The translations under genes were made by a program, and so were the position numbers. Source: Plasmodiophora brassicae (taxonomy: Eukaryota). From it: a stretch of 64,000 nt of DNA. Numbering within the stretch: position 1 is the stretch's first letter; every line of letters starts with the position of its first letter. This document shows, one piece after another, positions 1 through 8,500 of the stretch. Where the stretch lies: NCBI GenBank assembly GCA_036867785.1, contig CP145419.1, positions 806,001 to 870,000 of the forward strand, written 5' to 3'. The notes under the pieces are model-generated. The model was given only the letters and a program-made list of their open reading frames with translations, was not told where the DNA came from and ran no database searches.

Positions 1-1693
1 TGCTCGTCAAGTTCGCGAACATCGGCAATTAGTCGAACCTGCTCCAAGTTTGTTGCGGTGAACGTGTTGTTGTTCGATTGGATACTCTGACGGAGGACCT
101 GCGAAGTGCCGGGATTCCCATTATCCAGTTTCGTCCAGACACGTCTCGAAGGCCGCACGCGAAGAAATCCGGTCTCGACCATGTCGATAATGCCTTTGGC
201 GTACATCCAAGTTAGAATAGACAGCTTGGTGGTTCCATTCCGATCCGAGACATCGACATAACCTACACCGCCATGGTCACCTGCAGCACAAATGTCGCGT
301 ACATGATCCTTCACAACGGTTTCTTCCAAATAGCATCTCTGGATGTTCGACAGCTGCTGCGCATCGATCTCCTTGCAGCAAATAGTGACGCACTGGCCAT
401 TGCTGTCGGGACGCCGAGCCGCACGCCCTGCCTGCTGAACGAAATCCATTGGACTGCTTGGTAGGCCGTATTGGACGATCAGTCCTACGTCCATGCGGTT
501 GATACCCAAGGAGAAAGCAACCGTGGCTACCATAATGGCGGACTGGTGCTGCTCCCAGCCTAGCTGCTGACGTTCGCGTACAGGTTCAGGCATACCTGGA
601 AGAAGATATTAGACATCGTAGCTCTCTGTTGGTAACTATTGTTTTCGTACCACCACGATACTTGAAGACCGGCCGAGACGGAGGAACATGTTTGACCAAC
701 AGATCATGCACCTTATCAGCGTGTTCTCGCCGCAACACGTAGACAATGGCCGCATTGCCATCATCGCAACGAGAGATGATATTAATAAGCATCGCGTCTG
801 CGTTCGCCATGGCCTCGCAGTGCACAAACCGATGCCCGACATTGGTGCGTGCAGACGGGGCCCAAACGACATTGTTTGCATCGATGTCGAAATGCATCAG
901 CATGCGGGGTAAACGACGCTTTGACAGAGTAGCCGTCAATACCAGAATAGGGCAGAGCAATCGCACAGCGATCAGAGCAGCGCGATGATAGTCTGCGCGG
1001 AACCGTTCTCCCCATTGTATAGCGGTGTCCCCTTCGTCGAAAGTAACGAACGAAACATGTGTGAGAGTCGATGGACACACTTGGAATAGTCGTACAAACA
1101 TTTCGGGACTGATGAACAGGAGTTTCAGTCCCTTCCCGAAACGGGAATATATTGCCTGTCGTTCAGTCGGCGTTCTGGTACCTGTTCAACATGCGATTTA
1201 GAGTCGAAACGACATAGTGCATTGACAATGCACAACCGTTGACAATGTCTACTGTGCCCTTGAAGTATTTACAGGCCTGTTGATACTGATCAAGTATCAA
1301 GCTGTTCAACGGTGAAACGACGATGCCAGTGCCTGGAAGCTCCTTGGCAGCCGCCTGGTACACAAGCGACTTCCCGGAACCTGTTGGGCTAACGAACAAG
1401 GTTGAACGGCCGTCCACGATTGACGTTATTGCTTCACGTTGACCAGGTCGGAGAGAACGAATCCCCATTGCACCCATGAGCTCCTCGGTCCCTGAAGTCT
1501 TCCGCCGAGCCATCTCCCGCCGAGCCATCTTATGGCATGATGCGTTCTCGTTCGGGACCATGAGACGTTTCATGGTACGTGCAAGCAGAAGACAGACTAC
1601 AACGCCCTCGCGTTCGACGACGACCGGCGCTTGGTTGCAATTTGGCGCGATGGCCGGAGAATCTTTGAACTGCGCAAATAGAATCCTCTCCAT
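1..1693 (-). CDS. RecQ-family SF2 DNA helicase, spliced, runs off the left edge of the window
   Basis: Motifs LRPGQREAI, SPTGSGKSLVYQ (I), IVVSPLNSLILDQ (Ia), LLFISPE, FDEGDTAIQWGERFRADY (II plus aromatic loop), LTAT (III), VATVAFSLGINRMDV (V), QQAGRAAR (VI). Two GT-AG introns (~1183-1238, ~596-650) join the frames, and the frame stays open to base 1. Start codon uncertain. Confidence 0.9.
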
Positions 1694-1728
1694 TGTATGT
1701 AGCTACCTATGTAGCTACATCGTGAAAT

Positions 1729-2698
1729 CTATGCTCCTCCACTGGAATGTGGGAGGGCGCTGCCTCCTGGAAGGCGGGACCAAATGCCGTTTCTATGCAG
1801 GAATTTGTGTTAGAAATCGCTCACAGCTTCTAGAGCGGAATGTGGGAGCGCGCCGCCTTCCTGGAAGGAGAGGCCAGATGCCGTTTCTATGCAGGAATTT
1901 GTGTTAGAAATCGCTAGCAGCTTCTAGAGCGGCGCCTGGCGGCGGGCCCTTCATGGCTGCGGGCTCCCGCCGGGTCGCCCTCCGCCTGCGTTCCCACTAT
2001 GCTCCTCCACTGGAATGTGGGAGGACGCCGCCTTCCTGGAAGGAGAGGCCAGATGCCGTTTCTATGCAGGAATTTGTGTTAGAAATCGCTAGCAGCTTCT
2101 AGAGCGGCGCCTGGCGGCGGGCCCTTCATGGCTGCGGGCTCCCGCCGGGTCGCCCTCCGCCTGCGTTCCCACTATGCTCCTCCACTGGAATGTGGGAGGA
2201 CGCCGCCTTCCTGGAAGGAGAGGCCAGATGCCGTTTCTATGCAGGAATTTGTGTTAGAAATCGCTAGCAGCTTCTAGAGCGGCGCCTGGCGGCGGGCCCT
2301 TCATGGCTGCGGGCTCCCGCCGGGTCGCCCTCCGCCTGCGTTCCCACTATGCTCCTCCACTGGAATGTGGGAGGACGCCGCCTTCCTGGAAGGAGAGGCC
2401 AGATGCCGTTTCTATGCAGGAATTTGTGTTAGAAATCGCTAGCAGCTTCTAGAGCGGCGCCTGGCGGCGGGCCCTTCATGGCTGCGGGCTCCCGCCGGGT
2501 CGCCCTCCGCCTGCGTTCCCACTATGCTCCTCCACTGGAATGTGGGAGGACGCCGCCTTCCTGGAAGGAGAGGCCAGATGCCGTTTCTATGCAGGAATTT
2601 GTGTTAGAAATCGCTAGCAGCTTCTAGAGCGGCGCCTGGCGGCGGGCCCTTCATGGCTGCGGGCTCCCGCCGGGTCGCCCTCCGCCTGCGTTGCCACT
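1729..2698. repeat. 175-bp tandem repeat array: four full near-identical units plus two diverged partial units
   Basis: CTATGCTCCTCCACTGGAATGTGGGA recurs at 1997, 2172, 2347 and 2522 (period exactly 175), with partial/diverged units at ~1729-1837 and ~1838-1996. Confidence 0.97.
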
Positions 2699-2731
2699 TG
2701 GTCCGTTTGCCCGCGGATGGCCCTGCCATTG

Positions 2732-2940
2732 TCCATAGTTAGCTGCGCCGTTATCCATAGTTTCCATAGTTCCGGGCAATATCGCATATCTGCATATCAC
2801 CGTACGAAACCCGAGCGTATTGCTTGCAAACTATGGAGAGTGGCAGCACCTGGCAGCCGAAATTAGACGAAAAAGTGCGTCGCTCGTCCAGTCCGCCATA
2901 CATCGTCGAGGGTCCGCTTCCCGTTATCCATAGTTAGCTC
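2732..2940. repeat. Cluster of five TCCATAGTT motifs
   Basis: Forward copies at 2732, 2754, 2763 and 2927; reverse copy AACTATGGA at 2829; longer match CCGTTATCCATAGTT at 2748 and 2921. Confidence 0.8.
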
Positions 2941-3013
2941 CACAGACGATTATACTACACGGCTGATATACCATCACCGTTGGGACGTCACAGGTGCCAT
3001 CAAAGCGGACGCC

Positions 3014-3835
3014 ATGCCGAACAACGTGCGGACGGCATATAAGGAGTTTGAAGTGTTTGCGCCGGATGTGTTCCGAGCGCACTTCAACAAAACGAAAGCG
3101 AAGTTGGGATGCCACCTCAGGAAGGACAAGGGCGGTCGCAAGTTAGGGAAACGTACGTCCGTCGCTGTACTGATCATTGCCACGTTTGCTCCATCTTTGA
3201 CATACGTTATGTTTGTATGTGAAGGCCCTAAGATCGACGATTCGGATCCTTGTAGTTCCACCGGTGATGAAGATTTTGAGGATACACCCATGGAGCACGG
3301 CAGTCGCAAATCTCTTCGCCTCTCGGAGCTGCCTGAGAGCTCATCCGAATTCACACAAGCTGTCGAATTCAAAAACCCGCCAGTCTTTGCAACGGTTTAC
3401 ACGGACCCAGACACCAACAATGATCGGGTACTCGTTGTTGCAGTGATGCACTCCGGCGCGTCCGACTTCAATTTCAAACTTTCGGACGATGCAAGTACTG
3501 CCATCATCGCCTACACCTGGCCTGAACCCGCATATAATGTCCAACTGCTGTTCAAGAAAGAACTTGCCAGTAAGACACTCGAAGCATATCATCCCAAGCT
3601 AGTCGCCATCAAGCGTGAGCTTGAACAGTTCCGTGACACTATTCAGGATCCTGCCACAGGGGCAGTGCACGTCAAGCTGCCGATCCCTGTTCAGACCGAG
3701 GTGGCGACTTGGTCGAAGCAGGCGACAGCCCGTTCAGATGGGACCACGTTAATTCTGTGGGAACTGAAATCGTTTGAGAGGGCCTACACGGTCACTCGGG
3801 AGGCCACAACCGTGGTAGTTGAGAAAGAGACGTGA
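3014..3835 (+). CDS. Orphan/hypothetical protein, probably TE-associated, with a likely intron at ~3152-3224
   Basis: 273-aa open frame with globular-looking composition (PPVFATVYTDPDT...YTWP...YHPKLVAIKRELE...VKLPIPVQ); AT-rich 3' flank; lies between the RecQ/array and the hAT relic. Confidence 0.65.
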   Translation: MPNNVRTAYKEFEVFAPDVFRAHFNKTKAKLGCHLRKDKGGRKLGKRTSVAVLIIATFAPSLTYVMFVCEGPKIDDSDPCSSTGDEDFEDTPMEHGSRKSLRLSELPESSSEFTQAVEFKNPPVFATVYTDPDTNNDRVLVVAVMHSGASDFNFKLSDDASTAIIAYTWPEPAYNVQLLFKKELASKTLEAYHPKLVAIKRELEQFRDTIQDPATGAVHVKLPIPVQTEVATWSKQATARSDGTTLILWELKSFERAYTVTREATTVVVEKET

Positions 3836-4036
3836 CTCCATTAATATAGAACCCGATTTCCTGATATCTCCAGCAAACTTACGTATTACTACAGGTTAAT
3901 GGATATTCGCTGGTGTTCCGTTTGTACCACTGGTTAGGAACCGCCTTGATCATCCTCCTGAATCGTGACCAATGGCGGATTCCCGCAACTCCCCGTCTGA
4001 GGCTGCTGGCGATTGCCACAACTCGGAATATGTGGA

Positions 4037-4277
4037 TACCTCTGTGGCTGAATATGTTACTCAGTTACCTTGCATGGCGCATGACTTGCAACTGGCGGCG
4101 AAGGGCCTGCAGCGCCTCCTTAAGTTTTGATGAGTCGCAAATCTTCTTCACTAGTAATTCTCGAAACGTGCAATCGCGACGTCCATGGTCTTACCGGATT
4201 TGATGCCATCCTTAACCGCCAGCCGCAAGACATGCGCCATGCAAGGTAACTGAGTAACGCATTCAGCCACAGGGGTA
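4037..4277. repeat. Inverted duplication of the hAT CxxH-coding segment
   Basis: 4037-4104 is the reverse complement of 4210-4277 with a few mismatches; both arms encode VAExVTQLPCMAHxLxLAxK. Confidence 0.9.
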
Positions 4278-4920
4278 GTGTGCCAGCCGCTGTCCCGTGT
4301 GCGGGTACAGCACGCGAACGAAACCCAGAATGCAATGCTTCGTCCCCCAATTCTCGTCGATGTAGTGCACCGTGCCGACGACCATGTAACCACGCTTAGC
4401 GGAAGAAGTCCACATATCGGACGTGAATCCAGGGCGCCTGTCCTTTCGGTCTGTGTTTAACAGCGCCCTGACCCTGTTCTTCTCCTCTCACCACCGATTC
4501 AGTACACGTGCGCGAACCGTATCCCGTGATGGAAGCCGGCACTCGGGTCTCAGCGAGTCACAGAACTCCACGAACTCATCCAGCTCGACAACGGTGAACG
4601 ACTGGAAATGAGTGACAATCCAGTCGATCAGTTTTCGGCCCGAGTACTCTCTGTCGACGTTGGTGAAATCAGCAGAAGGCATAACCTTCCGTTTCCCACC
4701 AACCGTCGAACCGCCTCCTTCACTCTTGAAGTAGTGTCTAGTCTTGCCCTGATTGACGGTCGGTTGCGACGGCGCGGTGTACACGTCACTGTGTTCGCTG
4801 ACGAGGTGGCGACGGTAGTATGACGTGTGTTTGACCTTGCAACGCCGCGATTTGTTCTTCGATGCACATGGAAGACAGAACCACGGGGCCACATGTCCTG
4901 CATCGTTCCCAATGACGCCA
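4151..4920 (-). pseudogene. hAT-superfamily transposase relic with BED-type zinc finger
   Basis: CLPC...RRHLVSEH (BED-like), FTVVELDEF...LRPECRLPSRDT, in-frame TGA at 4488-4490, then TSDMWTS, TVHYID, PHTGQRLA, and a deletion/frameshift to LPCMAHVLRLAVKDG (CxxH motif). Confidence 0.88.
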
Positions 4921-5137
4921 TGAACGTTGCTACTGCTCGCCGCGGCAGTCTGCCACACACAAGTCCCGAGAGTCGAGACTGCACCCACAAGTCCGCAGAC
5001 CGTCTGCAGGTCCGTGGGTGGCAGGGCGCGCTATTTATAAGTACCCACCGACCTGGTAGGCAGAAGAGTACTCGGACGCGCGACGGTACAGCTGTGCTTA
5101 GAGCGGCGCATTGTAGTCGTCGCCGGAGGCACCCGCC

Positions 5138-5476
5138 ATGAAGGTCAACACGCACGTTCGCGACAGGCAGATCGGCATCGAGTGCGGCGATGGCGTGCAG
5201 GCAGTGAAATGGCTCGGTGCGTCCATCCAATAGGGGTCCACTGGCCCGATAGCTGAACGAAGGGGCGCGCCGTCTGCAGCCGACGCCAGCCTATGTCGGT
5301 ATGACGGCGCGTTTGGCGTTAGCTTAGGCGTGCCGGTAGCCATGCGAACCGACACGAGTCAGGTTCTGGACATGACGGCGCCGATTGCGTCCTGCCTCGA
5401 ACACGGAGCCCATGTCTGGATCGTGCTGCCCGGCGACGACCGCAATTCGATCGTGCCAACGACGACGACGGAGTGA
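5138..5476 (+). CDS. Small 91-aa protein resembling the Par3/HAL N-terminal ubiquitin-like domain; 2 exons; absent from the ORF track
   Basis: Exon 5138-5216, GT-AG intron 5217-5279, exon 5280-5476 gives MKVNTHVRDRQIGIECGDGVQAVKWLADASLCRYDG...LEHGAHVWIVL, similar to the histidine ammonia-lyase N-terminus pattern (VHVRG...VPC...VGWLG..A..RY). Confidence 0.75.
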
Positions 5477-5550
5477 GGGAGCGCCCAGGCCACATCGGCA
5501 CGGGCGCGCTGTTGTTTATATAATATAAATCAATACTCTACAATTGTATT

Positions 5551-8500
5551 CTACGGGCTGGCCAGCGCCGAACTCGACGCCGGAACGACGACACTCTCCG
5601 ACGAGCGCTGCTCCTCTTCAGACCTGTCCAGATCGTGCCCCGTTCTCCGTTTCTTGCTGCTGCCGGTGCTTCGAACGGACGCGGTGTCACAGTCCTCGCT
5701 GTTGTTGTCCACGTCGGTCAGCTCATCGGCCGCATCGTCCTGTTCAGCGCCCTCCAGGTCGGCGCTGCTGTTCAGCGGATGCGGACGAGACCTCGACGGG
5801 CGACGCTCCTCGCGATACACGTCGGGCGATGATGTCGGCACGCGCCTGGACTCATGATCCGCATGGTACTGTCGTCGTGCTGCTGGCGGTTGCTCGTCGC
5901 TGCGAGCCGATCCGCTCTCGGAAGACGACGAGTCATCGGTCGGCCTGCTGTCCACGCCGTATTCGTGGTCGTCAACGTTCCCGCCTACGAACGGAACCTG
6001 CAGGTGACGTCGCAGCTGCTCAATGATGACCAGGTAGGGTGACGATGACACCGAGCGCGGCCGACCGACGCCACCATGCGACGGCGATCCTCCACTGCCG
6101 AAATGATGGTACGATTGCGACTCGTATGCACCTGTGGCGAAAGGCGATCAGCACGGAGCCCGAGACAGAGGTTCCATCCACCGCATCGTACGTTGCATCC
6201 ATCCGAGCATCCATTCCCATTGGTGCCGGTGGACGGCCATGTACGCCGCCAGAGGTTCGCACGCGTCCATGCTGCGCAGCATGTACGCGATCGAATTGAC
6301 AGTGAAGGCGGCATGACCAGCCGAATAGGCGCGAATCTGGTACGACACGCCAGACTCGAAGTTCATCAGCTCCATGATGCGCTGCGCCTAATCCAAGCGG
6401 TGTTAGGGCGATGCCGAGCAGCGGCTGTGGCCCGTACCTGTAGAGAGTCGGCGATCTGGACAATGCCATGGAATAGGTCGAAGTAGGGCTTGACTTGGTC
6501 GGCATTCGCCTTGATAACGCCATCAATAATGATCTTGTTGACAGGTTGCAAGTACGGCAGGTATTCATATGACCTGCGACACGACTTAGCAACAGTGCAA
6601 CCATCAAACCTGGACCATCACCATACCTGTGCACAAGAATATCCACAACACCGGAGACATCGCCGCCGTTCATCAGGGCTCTCTCGTAAAACAATTCGCA
6701 ATTAACAATGATTAGGTCGAGATCGGTCAGCGCCCACAGAGGGCCGGGCAGGCTTGTTGGAGGTCTGATGCCATTCTCACCGAAGCATCCCCGAACAACT
6801 GTGCCCATGACTCTATACACGGTGTGCAAGTCGGGCTGAACAATGCGATTGCCCATGATCGTCGTGTGTTTCGGGTAACCGGGAAGCTGCGAATCCCGAC
6901 CCAGTGTTAAATGCCCTAAACGGGCAACCGCCGATAGACGGACGAGATACTGTCGAGCGTATGGACCGCTCTCTGCCCAACGAAGGAGAACAGCAAACAG
7001 TTGATGGAAGCGGACCCAGTGACGCGACGCCGTGTCGACCAGGCGCATCAGGGAGAATACAACTTCCTGACATAGCGTCCGAGGAATCTCCCCCGAGGAC
7101 GACGACGGGATGCCTTCCTCGTCGGCTTCATGTTGAATTGGGGAGCTGTACGGGGGCAGCGGAGGAGTGTTCGCCGGGATCGGCGGCGTTTCATGGGCGG
7201 AAACCGTCTCGAGGCAAACCGAGAGCACGCTCCCAAATGCCTCGCGCGTGTTCTTGTCGCGACAGTTGAGAAGGAAATCAGACAGTACAAGGATGCGACT
7301 GCCGAATTCACGAAGAAACCACTTCGCGATATCGACATCGACAGAAGCCTCCACCCGGAGCTGAGCGAGAATCGTGCACGCGTCGGCGGCCCCAGACACA
7401 CTGCGAGCCAGGACATCCAATGCGAAACGCGTCGCCAGTTTCAGCACCATAGGTTGGCTTGAAATCGGCTCAGTGGCATTCAAGGATAAGACTTCCCTGA
7501 TGAATGAGACGGACGTCGAATCGAACAGTTGACGATCGCGGAAGAACCGGTTGTTGCTGACAGTGATCTCTTCCAGGATCTTCTCTGGAACATTACACTG
7601 AAAGAAGTTCACATATGCTGCTCAGCAAGAACCGACGAGGGCACGTACCTGCATTCCCACAGGAGCTGGAGCTTCGTCAGTGGAAGGTCTGACCCTTTCA
7701 TACACCAGCATATACGCGTTCTTCATGTTATCCTCGCCACCGAACGCTTCGTCCCCGAGCTTGTCGATGGAAAATCGTCGGACGATCTGGTCATTGAACT
7801 CCAGCCAGGCCGGCATAGGCGCAGATCGATCGCGGATGTAGCTGTAATAGTGGCCAGCGTCGGCAGTCCCGATGTGGATAATGACCCCAGCAAGTTCATA
7901 GTCTAACTGCTCAGGGACTGCACCTTCAGAGCTCGCAGATTGCAATTGTGGTGTCAGGGCACGTTTTGTGTAAGGCTCCATGTTGACGCGAAGCGGGAAC
8001 TCAAACCGGTTGTTGAGCTTCTCGTTCATAAAGGTCTCAAAGTTCAGCTCGAACCTAAACGCGCAAAGTCAGCTTATACCGGCAACATTCAGACGTACGC
8101 CATGCCTCTTCAAGTGGAATATTAATGTGTTCGGAAGATCATCCAGGACCACTCTTTTGAATGTGGTATTCGATCGGGTGCCACAAGAGTCACAGTTTAC
8201 GCCGCTGAGCTTTTCGCCAGCGATATATGCATCGAGTGACTCGGCGAGATTACGAAACCCCTTCACTTGAAGCGAGACGTTCGAGAACTCCTCACGTTGC
8301 TCTCGGACGGAATTGCAACCGCCCTGGCACAACATTTGATTGCAAAGATGTCCGCCAAATGTGTCCTTCAACAGGGACTCGTGGGCAGAACCTTTGAGGG
8401 CCGATTCTATTCGGTCGACAAGCACGTTGAAAAACTCCTGAGCGTCCTGTTGTACACGAACGTCAATCGGCCTTCCAGATTCATCAAGGTAGGATGAGCA

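What the first reader, a model, noticed from the sequence alone, without database searches (positions are those of the whole stretch)
1..3835. RecQ helicase + 175-bp array + orphan ORF in divergent layout: candidate novel mobile or maintenance module
Seen: an intact spliced RecQ whose longest ORF starts ~35 bp from a homogeneous tandem array, followed by a motif cluster and a divergently oriented orphan ORF. The two ORFs are AT-richer than neighbouring host genes and adjoin a hAT relic. Known: RecQ helicases occur as cargo in AcademH transposons and as telomere-linked helicases next to tandem repeats in fungi. Inference: this may be one end of a helicase-encoding element, with the array as origin, promoter or binding platform.
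Basis: partly seen in the sequence, partly recalled or inferred. Interest (0 to 1): 0.75.

Follow-up and report, generated by a model that had tools for sequence, protein, structure and literature searches.

The report
RecQ helicase on probable Crypton transposon
The helicase gene at the left edge of this clubroot-pathogen window belongs to a two-gene unit (a recombinase-like gene plus the helicase) found in identical copies on two chromosomes, most likely a new kind of Crypton-type jumping gene. The neighbouring repeat array and orphan gene are not shown to travel with it.

Summary
The window is Plasmodiophora brassicae Pb3A chromosome 12. The described features are all present:
- a spliced RecQ-family helicase on the minus strand (3-1693, two 55-nt introns, running off the left edge);
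- a 175-bp tandem array (1729-2698);
- a CCATAGTT motif cluster (2733-2935);
- a divergent orphan ORF (3014-3835);
- a hAT-like relic (4151-5030).

The gene table of the Pb3A genome paper settles the main question. The helicase model occurs twice in identical form, on chromosomes 1 and 12. Each copy lies beside an identical 699-aa gene just left of the window. By eye that gene carries a tyrosine-recombinase R-K-H-R-W-Y pattern; no tool tested this. The outer neighbours differ on both sides and the Chr12 ones are ordinary genes.

So the helicase is cargo of a two-gene repeated unit, best read as a Crypton-like transposon with an accessory RecQ. This pairing was not found in print.

The orphan is not part of the unit. 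The chromosome 1 copy has a different neighbour, and the orphan's own paralog lies on chromosome 17. Whether the array belongs to the element or to its flank is unresolved. The telomere-linked and Academ readings are not supported.

The parts
3..595 (-). RecQ-family helicase, exon 3. It holds Helicase_C motifs V-VI and an unassigned C-terminal region. The frame is open to the window edge. Public models instead splice 194-266 and end at a stop at 29-31.
596..650 (-). RecQ intron 2, 55 nt, GTACGA..TTCCAG
651..1181 (-). RecQ exon 2 (second half of the DEAD domain, motifs II-IV)
1182..1236 (-). RecQ intron 1, 55 nt, GTTGTG..GAACAG
1237..1693 (-). RecQ exon 1, from the annotated ATG (1691-1693) through motifs I and Ia. 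It contains a 15-bp duplication at 1498-1530.
1697..1720 (.). Perfect palindrome ATGTAGCTAC-ctat-GTAGCTACAT. It can also be read as 9-bp arms with a 6-bp spacer CCTATG. It lies between the RecQ ATG and the array and is a candidate recombinase core site or promoter element.
   Evidence: It is the only perfect 10-bp-arm inverted repeat in the 64 kb; first-order Markov resamples give a mean of 0.5 per window.
1729..2698 (.). Tandem array: one diverged 94-bp short unit, then about 5 units of 175 bp at 98-99% identity. GC is 0.63. Stops occur in all frames.
2726..2939 (.). Motif cluster of 5 CCATAGTT sites (4 on the plus strand, 1 on the minus), which read TATGG on the opposite strand. The 19-mers at 2726-2744 and 2921-2939 are 89% alike and are related to 1690-1708.
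2991..3835 (+). Orphan gene PBTT_07699. A splice-acceptor-like CAG lies at 2991-2993. The ORF runs from the ATG at 3014 to the stop at 3833-3835. An in-frame 72-nt intron at 3153-3224 is removed in the e3 model. Homology to the Chrm_17 paralog covers 2996-3781 only.
4151..5030 (-). hAT-like transposase relic, N-terminal half, broken over three frames. Context only; not part of the helicase unit.
   Evidence: Atlas lead; negative

Best explanation
Bases 1 to about 1700 are the right-hand part of a mobile or recently mobile unit of roughly 6-7 kb carrying two genes. One is a 699-aa tyrosine-recombinase-like gene just left of the window. The other is this divergent RecQ-family helicase. The unit is best read as a Crypton-type DNA transposon that has gained an accessory helicase.

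Shown:
- The helicase has a RecQ-like SF2 core.
- Two identical helicase models exist, on chromosomes 1 and 12. Each lies beside an identical 699-aa gene, and the outer neighbours differ on both sides.
- In the older short-read assembly the pair sits alone on a 6,377-bp contig.

Inferred:
- The 699-aa protein is the recombinase. It would cut the unit out as a circle and reinsert it by site-specific recombination at short matching sequences, as proposed for Cryptons.
- The helicase assists, either by unwinding or resolving the recombination intermediate or by helping the circle to be copied.
- The right end lies either at the palindrome at 1697-1720 or beyond the array near the CCATAGTT/TATGG cluster. 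I rate these about even.
- If the array is inside the unit, it carries the helicase promoter, since the ATG is only 35 bp away.
- The orphan ORF is a flanking, 5'-truncated member of a P. brassicae-only gene family. The hAT relic is separate debris.
For: Organism and chromosome.

RecQ core:
- Pfam DEAD and Helicase_C.
- PDB best hits are RecQ 4tmu at 4e-34, BLM at 1e-32 and E. coli RecQ at 2.8e-31.
- TIGR01389 and TIGR00614 are the top NCBIfam hits.

Copy number and neighbours:
- In the Pb3A Table S5, 3 of the 9,364 rows held have PBRA_009686 as top hit. They are PBTT_00720 and PBTT_07698 (identical, 493 aa) and PBTT_03628 (585 aa, 61% similarity).
- 2 of the 9,364 rows have PBRA_009687 as top hit: PBTT_00719 and PBTT_07697, each next to an identical RecQ copy.
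- The outer neighbours differ. On Chr12 they are PBTT_07696 and PBTT_07699; on Chr1 they are PBTT_00718 and PBTT_00721.
- P0004 is recorded on 2 contigs, the longest 2,102,640 bp, which is the length of Chrm_01. PBRA_009686 is on a 6,377-bp contig.

Recombinase reading:
- In the first 400 residues printed I read ..ILGR....SRQK....HSLRRG....GGW....LEY.. in that order.
- By hand count these are R167, K196, H283, R286, W310 and Y321. The spacing resembles Cre as I recall it.

Crypton features, from passages read:
- No TIRs; short terminal direct repeats; most CryptonS termini are TATGG; recombinase sites are two inverted repeats around a 6-8 bp spacer (PMC3212892).
- Active Cryptons insert by matching a terminal 5-mer to its target and prefer gene-proximal intergenic DNA and 5' UTRs (PMC9977147).

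Matching features in the window:
- The palindrome at 1697-1720.
- The TATGG-containing motif cluster.
- Loss of the orphan paralog's first exon exactly upstream of 2996.
Against: - The recombinase assignment was not tested by any tool. The sequence lies outside the window and is known to me only from a supplement, where it is cut at 400 residues.
- Only two copies are seen, the ends are not mapped, and no empty site or polymorphism was seen.
- Accession numbering leaves exactly four slots between SPQ99128 and SPQ99123. This suggests isolate e3 has the same Chr12 insertion, so there is no evidence of recent movement between isolates.
- The repeat summary of the Pb3A paper lists no Crypton class.
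- A third, diverged helicase paralog (PBTT_03628) sits between NDUFV2-like and RPL13-like genes. The helicase family therefore also has a cellular-looking member.
- One perfect 10-bp-arm palindrome per 64 kb is near chance expectation (mean 0.5). Only its position is notable, and that was judged after the fact.
Confidence: 0.6

Rival explanations
1. Dispersed segmental duplication of a resident two-gene block. The block would be a domesticated recombinase-like gene plus a lineage-specific RecQ paralog, with no transposition machinery of its own. The array would be an ordinary minisatellite in a shared upstream region.
For: - Only two copies are seen.
- A third paralog lies in a housekeeping context.
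- The Chr12 copy is probably shared with isolate e3.
- No Crypton class appears in the published repeat table.
Against: - The pair is identical at protein level over 699 + 493 aa, while the genes immediately outside differ on both sides.
- The pair collapsed into its own 6,377-bp contig in the short-read assembly.
- By eye the recombinase-like catalytic pattern is intact, which is not what domesticated Crypton genes usually show according to PMC3212892.
Confidence: 0.2
2. The first reader's module: RecQ, array, motif cluster and orphan ORF form one mobile or maintenance unit.
For: - The features are tightly juxtaposed and divergently arranged.
- The orphan is also multi-copy, with a paralog on Chrm_17.
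Against: - The Chrm_01 RecQ copy has PBTT_00721, a different protein, where the orphan would be.
- The orphan paralog shares only 2996-3781 and has other sequence on both sides.
- No second RecQ or recombinase-like row lies near it within the rows held. Its own row, PBTT_09621, is beyond the part of the table that is held.
Confidence: 0.05
3. Telomere-linked RecQ helicase of the fungal TLH / Y' type, sitting next to subtelomeric tandem repeats.
For: - A multi-copy RecQ-like gene lies next to a tandem array.
- Such families are described in fungi (PMC4522978 passages).
Against: - TTTTAGGG and its complement each occur once in 64 kb, with no array of them.
- At least 18 annotated genes lie to the left, including MCM2-like and UTP11-like ones. 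62 kb of genes lie to the right.
- There are only two copies.
Confidence: 0.02
4. An AcademH-type DDE transposon carrying a RecQ helicase.
For: RecQ helicases are reported as accessory genes of Academ elements (PMC3627910 passage).
Against: - The only gene shared by both copies besides the helicase reads as a tyrosine recombinase, not a DDE transposase (by eye).
- No terminal inverted repeat was found at the visible end.
Confidence: 0.03

Closest known systems
Crypton DNA transposons (tyrosine-recombinase elements; CryptonS of stramenopiles, CryptonF of fungi and algae)
   Same: - A recombinase-like gene with the R..H-x-x-R..Y order (read by eye).
- Few copies with unrelated flanks.
- No inverted terminal repeat at the visible end.
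- TATGG-containing motifs and an inverted-repeat-plus-spacer site near the presumed end.
- Position just upstream of a gene.
   Different: - The unit carries a second gene, a RecQ-family helicase. The Crypton paper I read reports only a C48 peptidase or a GCR1_C domain as extras.
- The host is a rhizarian.
- The ends and the recombinase were not verified here.
AcademH transposons
   Same: A transposon-borne RecQ-like helicase as an accessory gene.
   Different: Academ elements move with a DDE transposase (recalled). Here the partner gene looks like a tyrosine recombinase.
Fungal telomere-linked RecQ helicases (Magnaporthe TLH, Ustilago UTASa, yeast Y', Zymoseptoria subtelomeric RecQ)
   Same: A multi-copy, diverged RecQ-like gene next to tandem repeats.
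   Different: - The chromosomal position is internal, among ordinary genes.
- There are no telomere repeats.
- There are two copies only.
Cellular RecQ helicases (bacterial RecQ, BLM, RECQ1/4/5, WRN)
   Same: A helicase core alignable over about 330 residues at 30-36% identity.
   Different: - No detectable RecQ zinc-binding, RQC or HRDC domain.
- Motif II reads DEGD rather than DEAH (read from the sequence; the canonical form is recalled).
- Scores are below the curated RecQ family cut-offs.
Starship / Enterprise giant elements of fungi
   Same: A tyrosine recombinase mobilising additional cargo (search listing, abstracts only).
   Different: - Those elements are tens to hundreds of kb long.
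- They have a DUF3435 'captain' gene.
- They are restricted to Pezizomycotina.
- The unit here holds two genes in about 6-7 kb.

Membership tests
RecQ helicase family | SF2 core (DEAD/ResIII plus Helicase_C) most similar to RecQ | tested here: met
   Pfam DEAD and Helicase_C. The PDB top hits are all RecQ-family: 4tmu 4e-34, BLM, RecQ4, RecQ5, RecQ1 and WRN. TIGR01389 and TIGR00614 are the best NCBIfam hits.
RecQ helicase family | Score above the curated family cut-off (TIGR00614 recQ_fam) | tested here: not met
   158.8 bits against a cut-off of 219.8. TIGR01389 scores 173.6 against 640.2.
RecQ helicase family | RecQ C-terminal zinc-binding and RQC winged-helix domains | tested here: not met
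   Pfam at E<=10 on P0009 (283 aa, including 86 aa beyond the window) finds only Helicase_C. By my count, 110 of the 118 other listed RecQ relatives carry PF16124; P0001 and P0009 do not. The AF2 model of P0009 is unusable at pLDDT 37.
Crypton (tyrosine-recombinase DNA transposon) | Encodes a tyrosine recombinase with the R-H-R-Y catalytic residues | not testable with these tools
   The gene lies outside the window. I read its first 400 residues only in Table S5 and recognised the pattern by eye. The sequence is not a stored protein, so it was not sent to any tool.
Crypton (tyrosine-recombinase DNA transposon) | Repeated copies at unrelated sites | tested here: met
   There are two identical gene pairs, on Chrm_01 and Chrm_12, with different neighbours on both sides. 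Only 9,364 of the 10,521 table rows were held.
Crypton (tyrosine-recombinase DNA transposon) | [quoted passage not shown] | not testable with these tools
   The left end and the second copy are not available as DNA. Candidate right-end features are the palindrome at 1697-1720 and the TATGG/CCATA sites at 2733-2935.
AcademH | DDE Academ transposase next to the helicase | tested here: inconclusive
   The only shared neighbour reads as a tyrosine recombinase (by eye). Unannotated DNA of the unit could not be searched.
Telomere-linked helicase (TLH / Y') | Location within the subtelomere, adjacent to telomere repeats | tested here: not met
   There is one TTTTAGGG and one CCCTAAAA in 64 kb. Ordinary genes lie on both sides.
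hAT transposon (the relic at 4151-5030) | hAT-type RNase-H-like transposase domain | tested here: inconclusive
   Pfam and PDB searches are negative. In the ESM Atlas 23 of 30 hits carry PF27041 ZBED1_RNase-like, score 0.94, with 176 of 256 shared features. The D-x-W-T-S and C-x-A-H motifs are seen by eye (recalled signatures).

The most novel reading that the evidence does not exclude
This is a previously undescribed class of Crypton-like element, the first from Rhizaria, that carries its own RecQ-family helicase. It moved recently enough to leave two identical copies. The palindrome at 1697-1720 or the TATGG-type motif cluster serves as the recombinase site. The 175-bp array is a subterminal platform or promoter, possibly built up by the recombinase acting on the CTATG cores that recur in every unit.
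Probability: 0.4. Interest if true: 0.7.

Novelty: new variant of a known kind. Interest (0 to 1): 0.55.

Why it matters
Cryptons are the least understood eukaryotic DNA transposons. Their activity was first observed only recently, and how they increase in copy number is unclear (PMC9977147 passage). An element pairing the recombinase with a dedicated helicase would suggest a route for replicating or resolving the intermediate. It would parallel bacterial integrative elements and extend the host range to Rhizaria.

For P. brassicae genomics there are three practical consequences:
- The unit explains an assembly break in the older genome.
- It shows that the public RecQ models are probably truncated at the 3' end.
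- It flags a repeat family that the published repeat table does not name.

Tried and rejected
- Orphan function. Pfam, NCBIfam and the ESM Atlas gave nothing. The AF2 model on a two-sequence alignment had pLDDT 35 and was not used.
- RecQ C-terminal domain. The AF2 single-sequence model had pLDDT 37 and was not used, so no fold search was run.
- Rfam on 1-6000 gave only one sub-threshold lncRNA match at E 0.28.
- Self-BLAST of 1-5200 against the window found no second copy of the helicase, array or orphan. tblastn of the paralog's first exon against the window found nothing.
- Close helicase relatives outside P. brassicae. The best non-self hit among 1.84 billion representatives is 34-36% identical. 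The word-based search gave the same picture and did not return PBTT_03628.
- Literature. No paper holds PBRA_009686, PBRA_009687 or PBRA_008430. Five papers hold P. brassicae together with RecQ; none concerns this gene, judged from the listing only. Two hold Plasmodiophora together with Crypton, both irrelevant by title. Four hold Crypton together with RecQ. I read passages of two, and they treat the two topics separately.
- Codon-usage scoring of the disputed 3' region. The host-trained model favours the open frame (+14.1 against -14.7 bits). The small RecQ-trained model is uninformative.
Full report
**Identity of the window**

Homology searches with the helicase exon and the orphan ORF return only Plasmodiophora brassicae proteins. 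The orphan's own record sits on a contig of 1,206,894 bp. That is the length of Chrm_12 in the Pb3A telomere-to-telomere assembly (supplement Table S2 of PMC11191646). Mean GC of the window is 0.592.

**Check of the observation**

The RecQ gene:
- It lies on the minus strand with exons at 1237-1693, 651-1181 and <=3-595. The two introns (1182-1236 and 596-650) are each 55 nt with GT..AG ends.
- The splice pattern reproduces the public models PBRA_009686 (P0001) and the Pb3A model (P0004).
- Pfam finds DEAD/ResIII and Helicase_C.
- Of the 111 PDB sequences at E<=0.001, the leaders are all RecQ-family: Cronobacter RecQ at 4e-34, BLM at 1e-32, and E. coli RecQ, RECQ4, RECQ5, RECQ1 and WRN.

The array, motif cluster, orphan and hAT relic:
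- TRF gives a period of 175 bp, 4.9 copies and 99% matches at 1837-2698, preceded by a 94-bp short variant.
- In register the array begins at 1729, 35 bp from the annotated ATG at 1691-1693. It has stops in every frame.
- All 5 of the 5 CCATAGTT matches in the window fall at 2733-2935. The expected number is 0.65, and 0 of 100 shuffles reach 5.
- The orphan ORF (3014-3835) matches no family.
- The hAT relic is negative in Pfam and PDB. In the ESM Atlas, 23 of 30 hits carry PF27041 ZBED1_RNase-like at 0.94, which I treat as a lead.

One statement fails. The two ORFs (GC 0.52-0.54) are not AT-richer than the adjacent USP9X-like gene (0.53-0.56). They are AT-richer only than genes further right.

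**The helicase is divergent and longer than annotated**

- Among 1.84 billion representatives, the best hits other than its own records are 34-36% identical generic RecQs.
- It scores below NCBIfam's RecQ cut-offs.
- It lacks the zinc-binding, RQC and HRDC domains. By my count, 110 of the 118 other listed relatives carry PF16124.
- Public models place a third intron at 194-266 and end in a 54-residue tail in another frame.
- An independent ORF record (P0009, 283 aa, from a 2,488-bp Logan contig) shows the exon-3 frame stays open for 86 codons beyond the window's first base.
- Host-trained codon usage favours that frame, +14.1 against -14.7 bits.
- I therefore think the models are truncated and the gene encodes roughly 610 residues. 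This is an inference.

**The decisive evidence: the gene table of the Pb3A paper**

Of the 10,521 genes in the table, 9,364 rows were held, and cells were cut at 400 characters.

- Three rows have PBRA_009686 as top hit. PBTT_07698 is the window's gene. PBTT_00720 on the 2.10-Mb Chrm_01 has an identical 493-aa model. PBTT_03628 is a 585-aa paralog at 61% similarity.
- Each identical copy lies next to an identical 699-aa gene (PBTT_07697 and PBTT_00719 = PBRA_009687). These are the only 2 rows with that top hit.
- The outer neighbours differ. On Chr12 the order is PBTT_07696 | pair | orphan PBTT_07699. On Chr1 it is PBTT_00718 (by eye a hAT C-terminal fragment) | pair | PBTT_00721, an unrelated 315-aa protein.
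- In the short-read e3 assembly, PBRA_009686 lies on a contig of only 6,377 bp, and PBRA_009687 carries the next locus tag. This is what a collapsed two-copy repeat of about that length would give. That the two genes share the contig is an inference from consecutive locus tags.

**What the 699-aa protein is**

In the printed residues I read ..ILGR.., ..SRQK.., ..HSLRRG.., ..GGW.., ..LEY.. in that order.
- By hand count these are R167, K196, H283, R286, W310 and Y321.
- This is the tyrosine-recombinase catalytic set, with spacing close to that of Cre as I recall it.
- The reading is my own, from a supplement. The sequence is neither in the window nor a stored protein, so no profile search was run on it.

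**Fit to Cryptons**

From passages read in the Crypton literature:
- Cryptons encode a tyrosine recombinase, lack inverted terminal repeats and have 4-6-bp terminal direct repeats.
- Most CryptonS termini are TATGG.
- Recombinase sites are typically two inverted repeats around a 6-8-bp spacer.
- Extra genes reported are a C48 peptidase or a GCR1_C domain, not a helicase (all PMC3212892).
- Active Chlamydomonas Cryptons pair a terminal 5-mer with a near-identical target, prefer gene-proximal intergenic DNA and 5' UTRs, and rise in copy number (PMC9977147).

In the window:
- The only perfect 10-bp-arm inverted repeat in 64 kb is ATGTAGCTAC-ctat-GTAGCTACAT at 1697-1720. It can also be read as 9-bp arms around CCTATG. 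It sits in the 35-bp gap between the helicase ATG and the array.
- Chance expectation is 0.5 per window, so only its position is notable, and that was judged after the fact.
- The CCATAGTT cluster reads TATGG on the other strand.
- Related 19-mers lie on both sides of the array, at 1690-1708, 2726-2744 and 2921-2939.

I cannot tell from one copy whether the element ends at the palindrome or beyond the array.
- For inclusion of the array: a helicase whose ATG is 35 bp from the array needs its promoter there.
- Against: the element could rely on a junction or outside promoter, and the array's edge copies are the diverged ones (92% against 98-99%), as in a minisatellite that grew in place.

**The orphan is a neighbour, not cargo**

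- It has a paralog (PBRA_008430 / PBTT_09621) on the 747,440-bp Chrm_17.
- tblastn shows homology only over window 2996-3781, including the in-frame 72-nt intron at 3153-3224. The sequence at both ends is different.
- The paralog's first exon is absent from the window, and a splice-acceptor-like CAG sits at 2991-2993.
- The simplest reading is that whatever lies upstream (element, array or both) replaced the 5' end of this gene copy. This is an inference.

**Position**

- Eighteen table rows to the left, PBTT_07680 reads MCM2-like, and PBTT_07695 reads UTP11-like.
- To the right lies a 2,800-aa USP9X-like gene.
- The telomere repeat TTTTAGGG, named in PMC6823432, occurs once on each strand.
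- The telomere-linked helicase reading is therefore rejected.
- Accession numbers of the e3 long-read annotation leave exactly four slots between the hits of PBTT_07694 and PBTT_07699. This hints that e3 has the same insertion, which is a weak inference.

**What remains open**

- The exact ends of the unit, and whether the array belongs to it.
- Whether the recombinase is really one.
- Whether further copies exist among the 1,157 table rows not held or in unannotated DNA.
- Whether any isolate has an empty site.

No P. brassicae DNA outside the window was reachable with these tools. The supplements of the bioRxiv pangenome preprint were closed; I read only passages of its text.

**Novelty**

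- In the held library, four papers contain both 'Crypton' and 'RecQ'. The two I read passages of treat them separately. I saw the other two only as titles.
- None links P. brassicae with Cryptons or names these genes.
- A Crypton-like unit with a RecQ-family helicase is therefore, as far as these searches reach, a new variant of a known kind.

Noticed in passing
window 4037-4104 and 4210-4277: A 68-nt inverted duplication (88% complementary, 105 nt apart) lies at the truncated end of the hAT-like relic. Both arms encode the ..QLPCMAH.L.LA.. stretch. It looks like a fold-back rearrangement at the break.
   Followed up: partly
window 29-266: Public RecQ models (P0001, P0004) splice out 194-266 and end in an R/S-rich 54-residue tail. 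The unspliced frame stays open to the window edge and for 86 more codons in P0009, so the annotated 3' end is probably wrong.
   Followed up: partly
window 3153-3224: An in-frame 72-nt GT..AG intron of the orphan gene is retained in the Pb3A model (273 aa) and removed in the e3 model (249 aa). The retained intron is also letter-identical in the Chrm_17 paralog model P0006.
   Followed up: partly
outside the window (Pb3A PBTT_03628): A third, diverged paralog of the helicase (585 aa, 61% similarity) lies between NDUFV2-like and RPL13-like genes. It may be the cellular source of the element's helicase or a domesticated copy of it.
   Followed up: no
window 1498-1530: A 15-bp tandem duplication inside RecQ exon 1 gives the repeated peptide MARREMARR.
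   Followed up: no
outside the window (Pb3A PBTT_00718, PBTT_00212): A small family of 233-243-aa proteins reads by eye as hAT C-terminal dimerisation domains. One of them directly flanks the Chrm_01 copy of the recombinase-helicase pair, just as a hAT N-terminal relic lies near the Chrm_12 copy.
   Followed up: no
window 62001-64000: GC rises to 0.725, with long overlapping open frames on both strands. A 35-bp x 3.2 tandem repeat lies at 56150-56261.
   Followed up: no
window 1707-2935: The pentamer CTATG or its complement occurs 17 times here: in the palindrome spacer, twice per array unit, and in all five cluster motifs. Only 1 further occurrence lies in the rest of the first 5,200 bases. 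It may be a shared recombination core, but most occurrences are array copies and so are not independent.
   Followed up: partly
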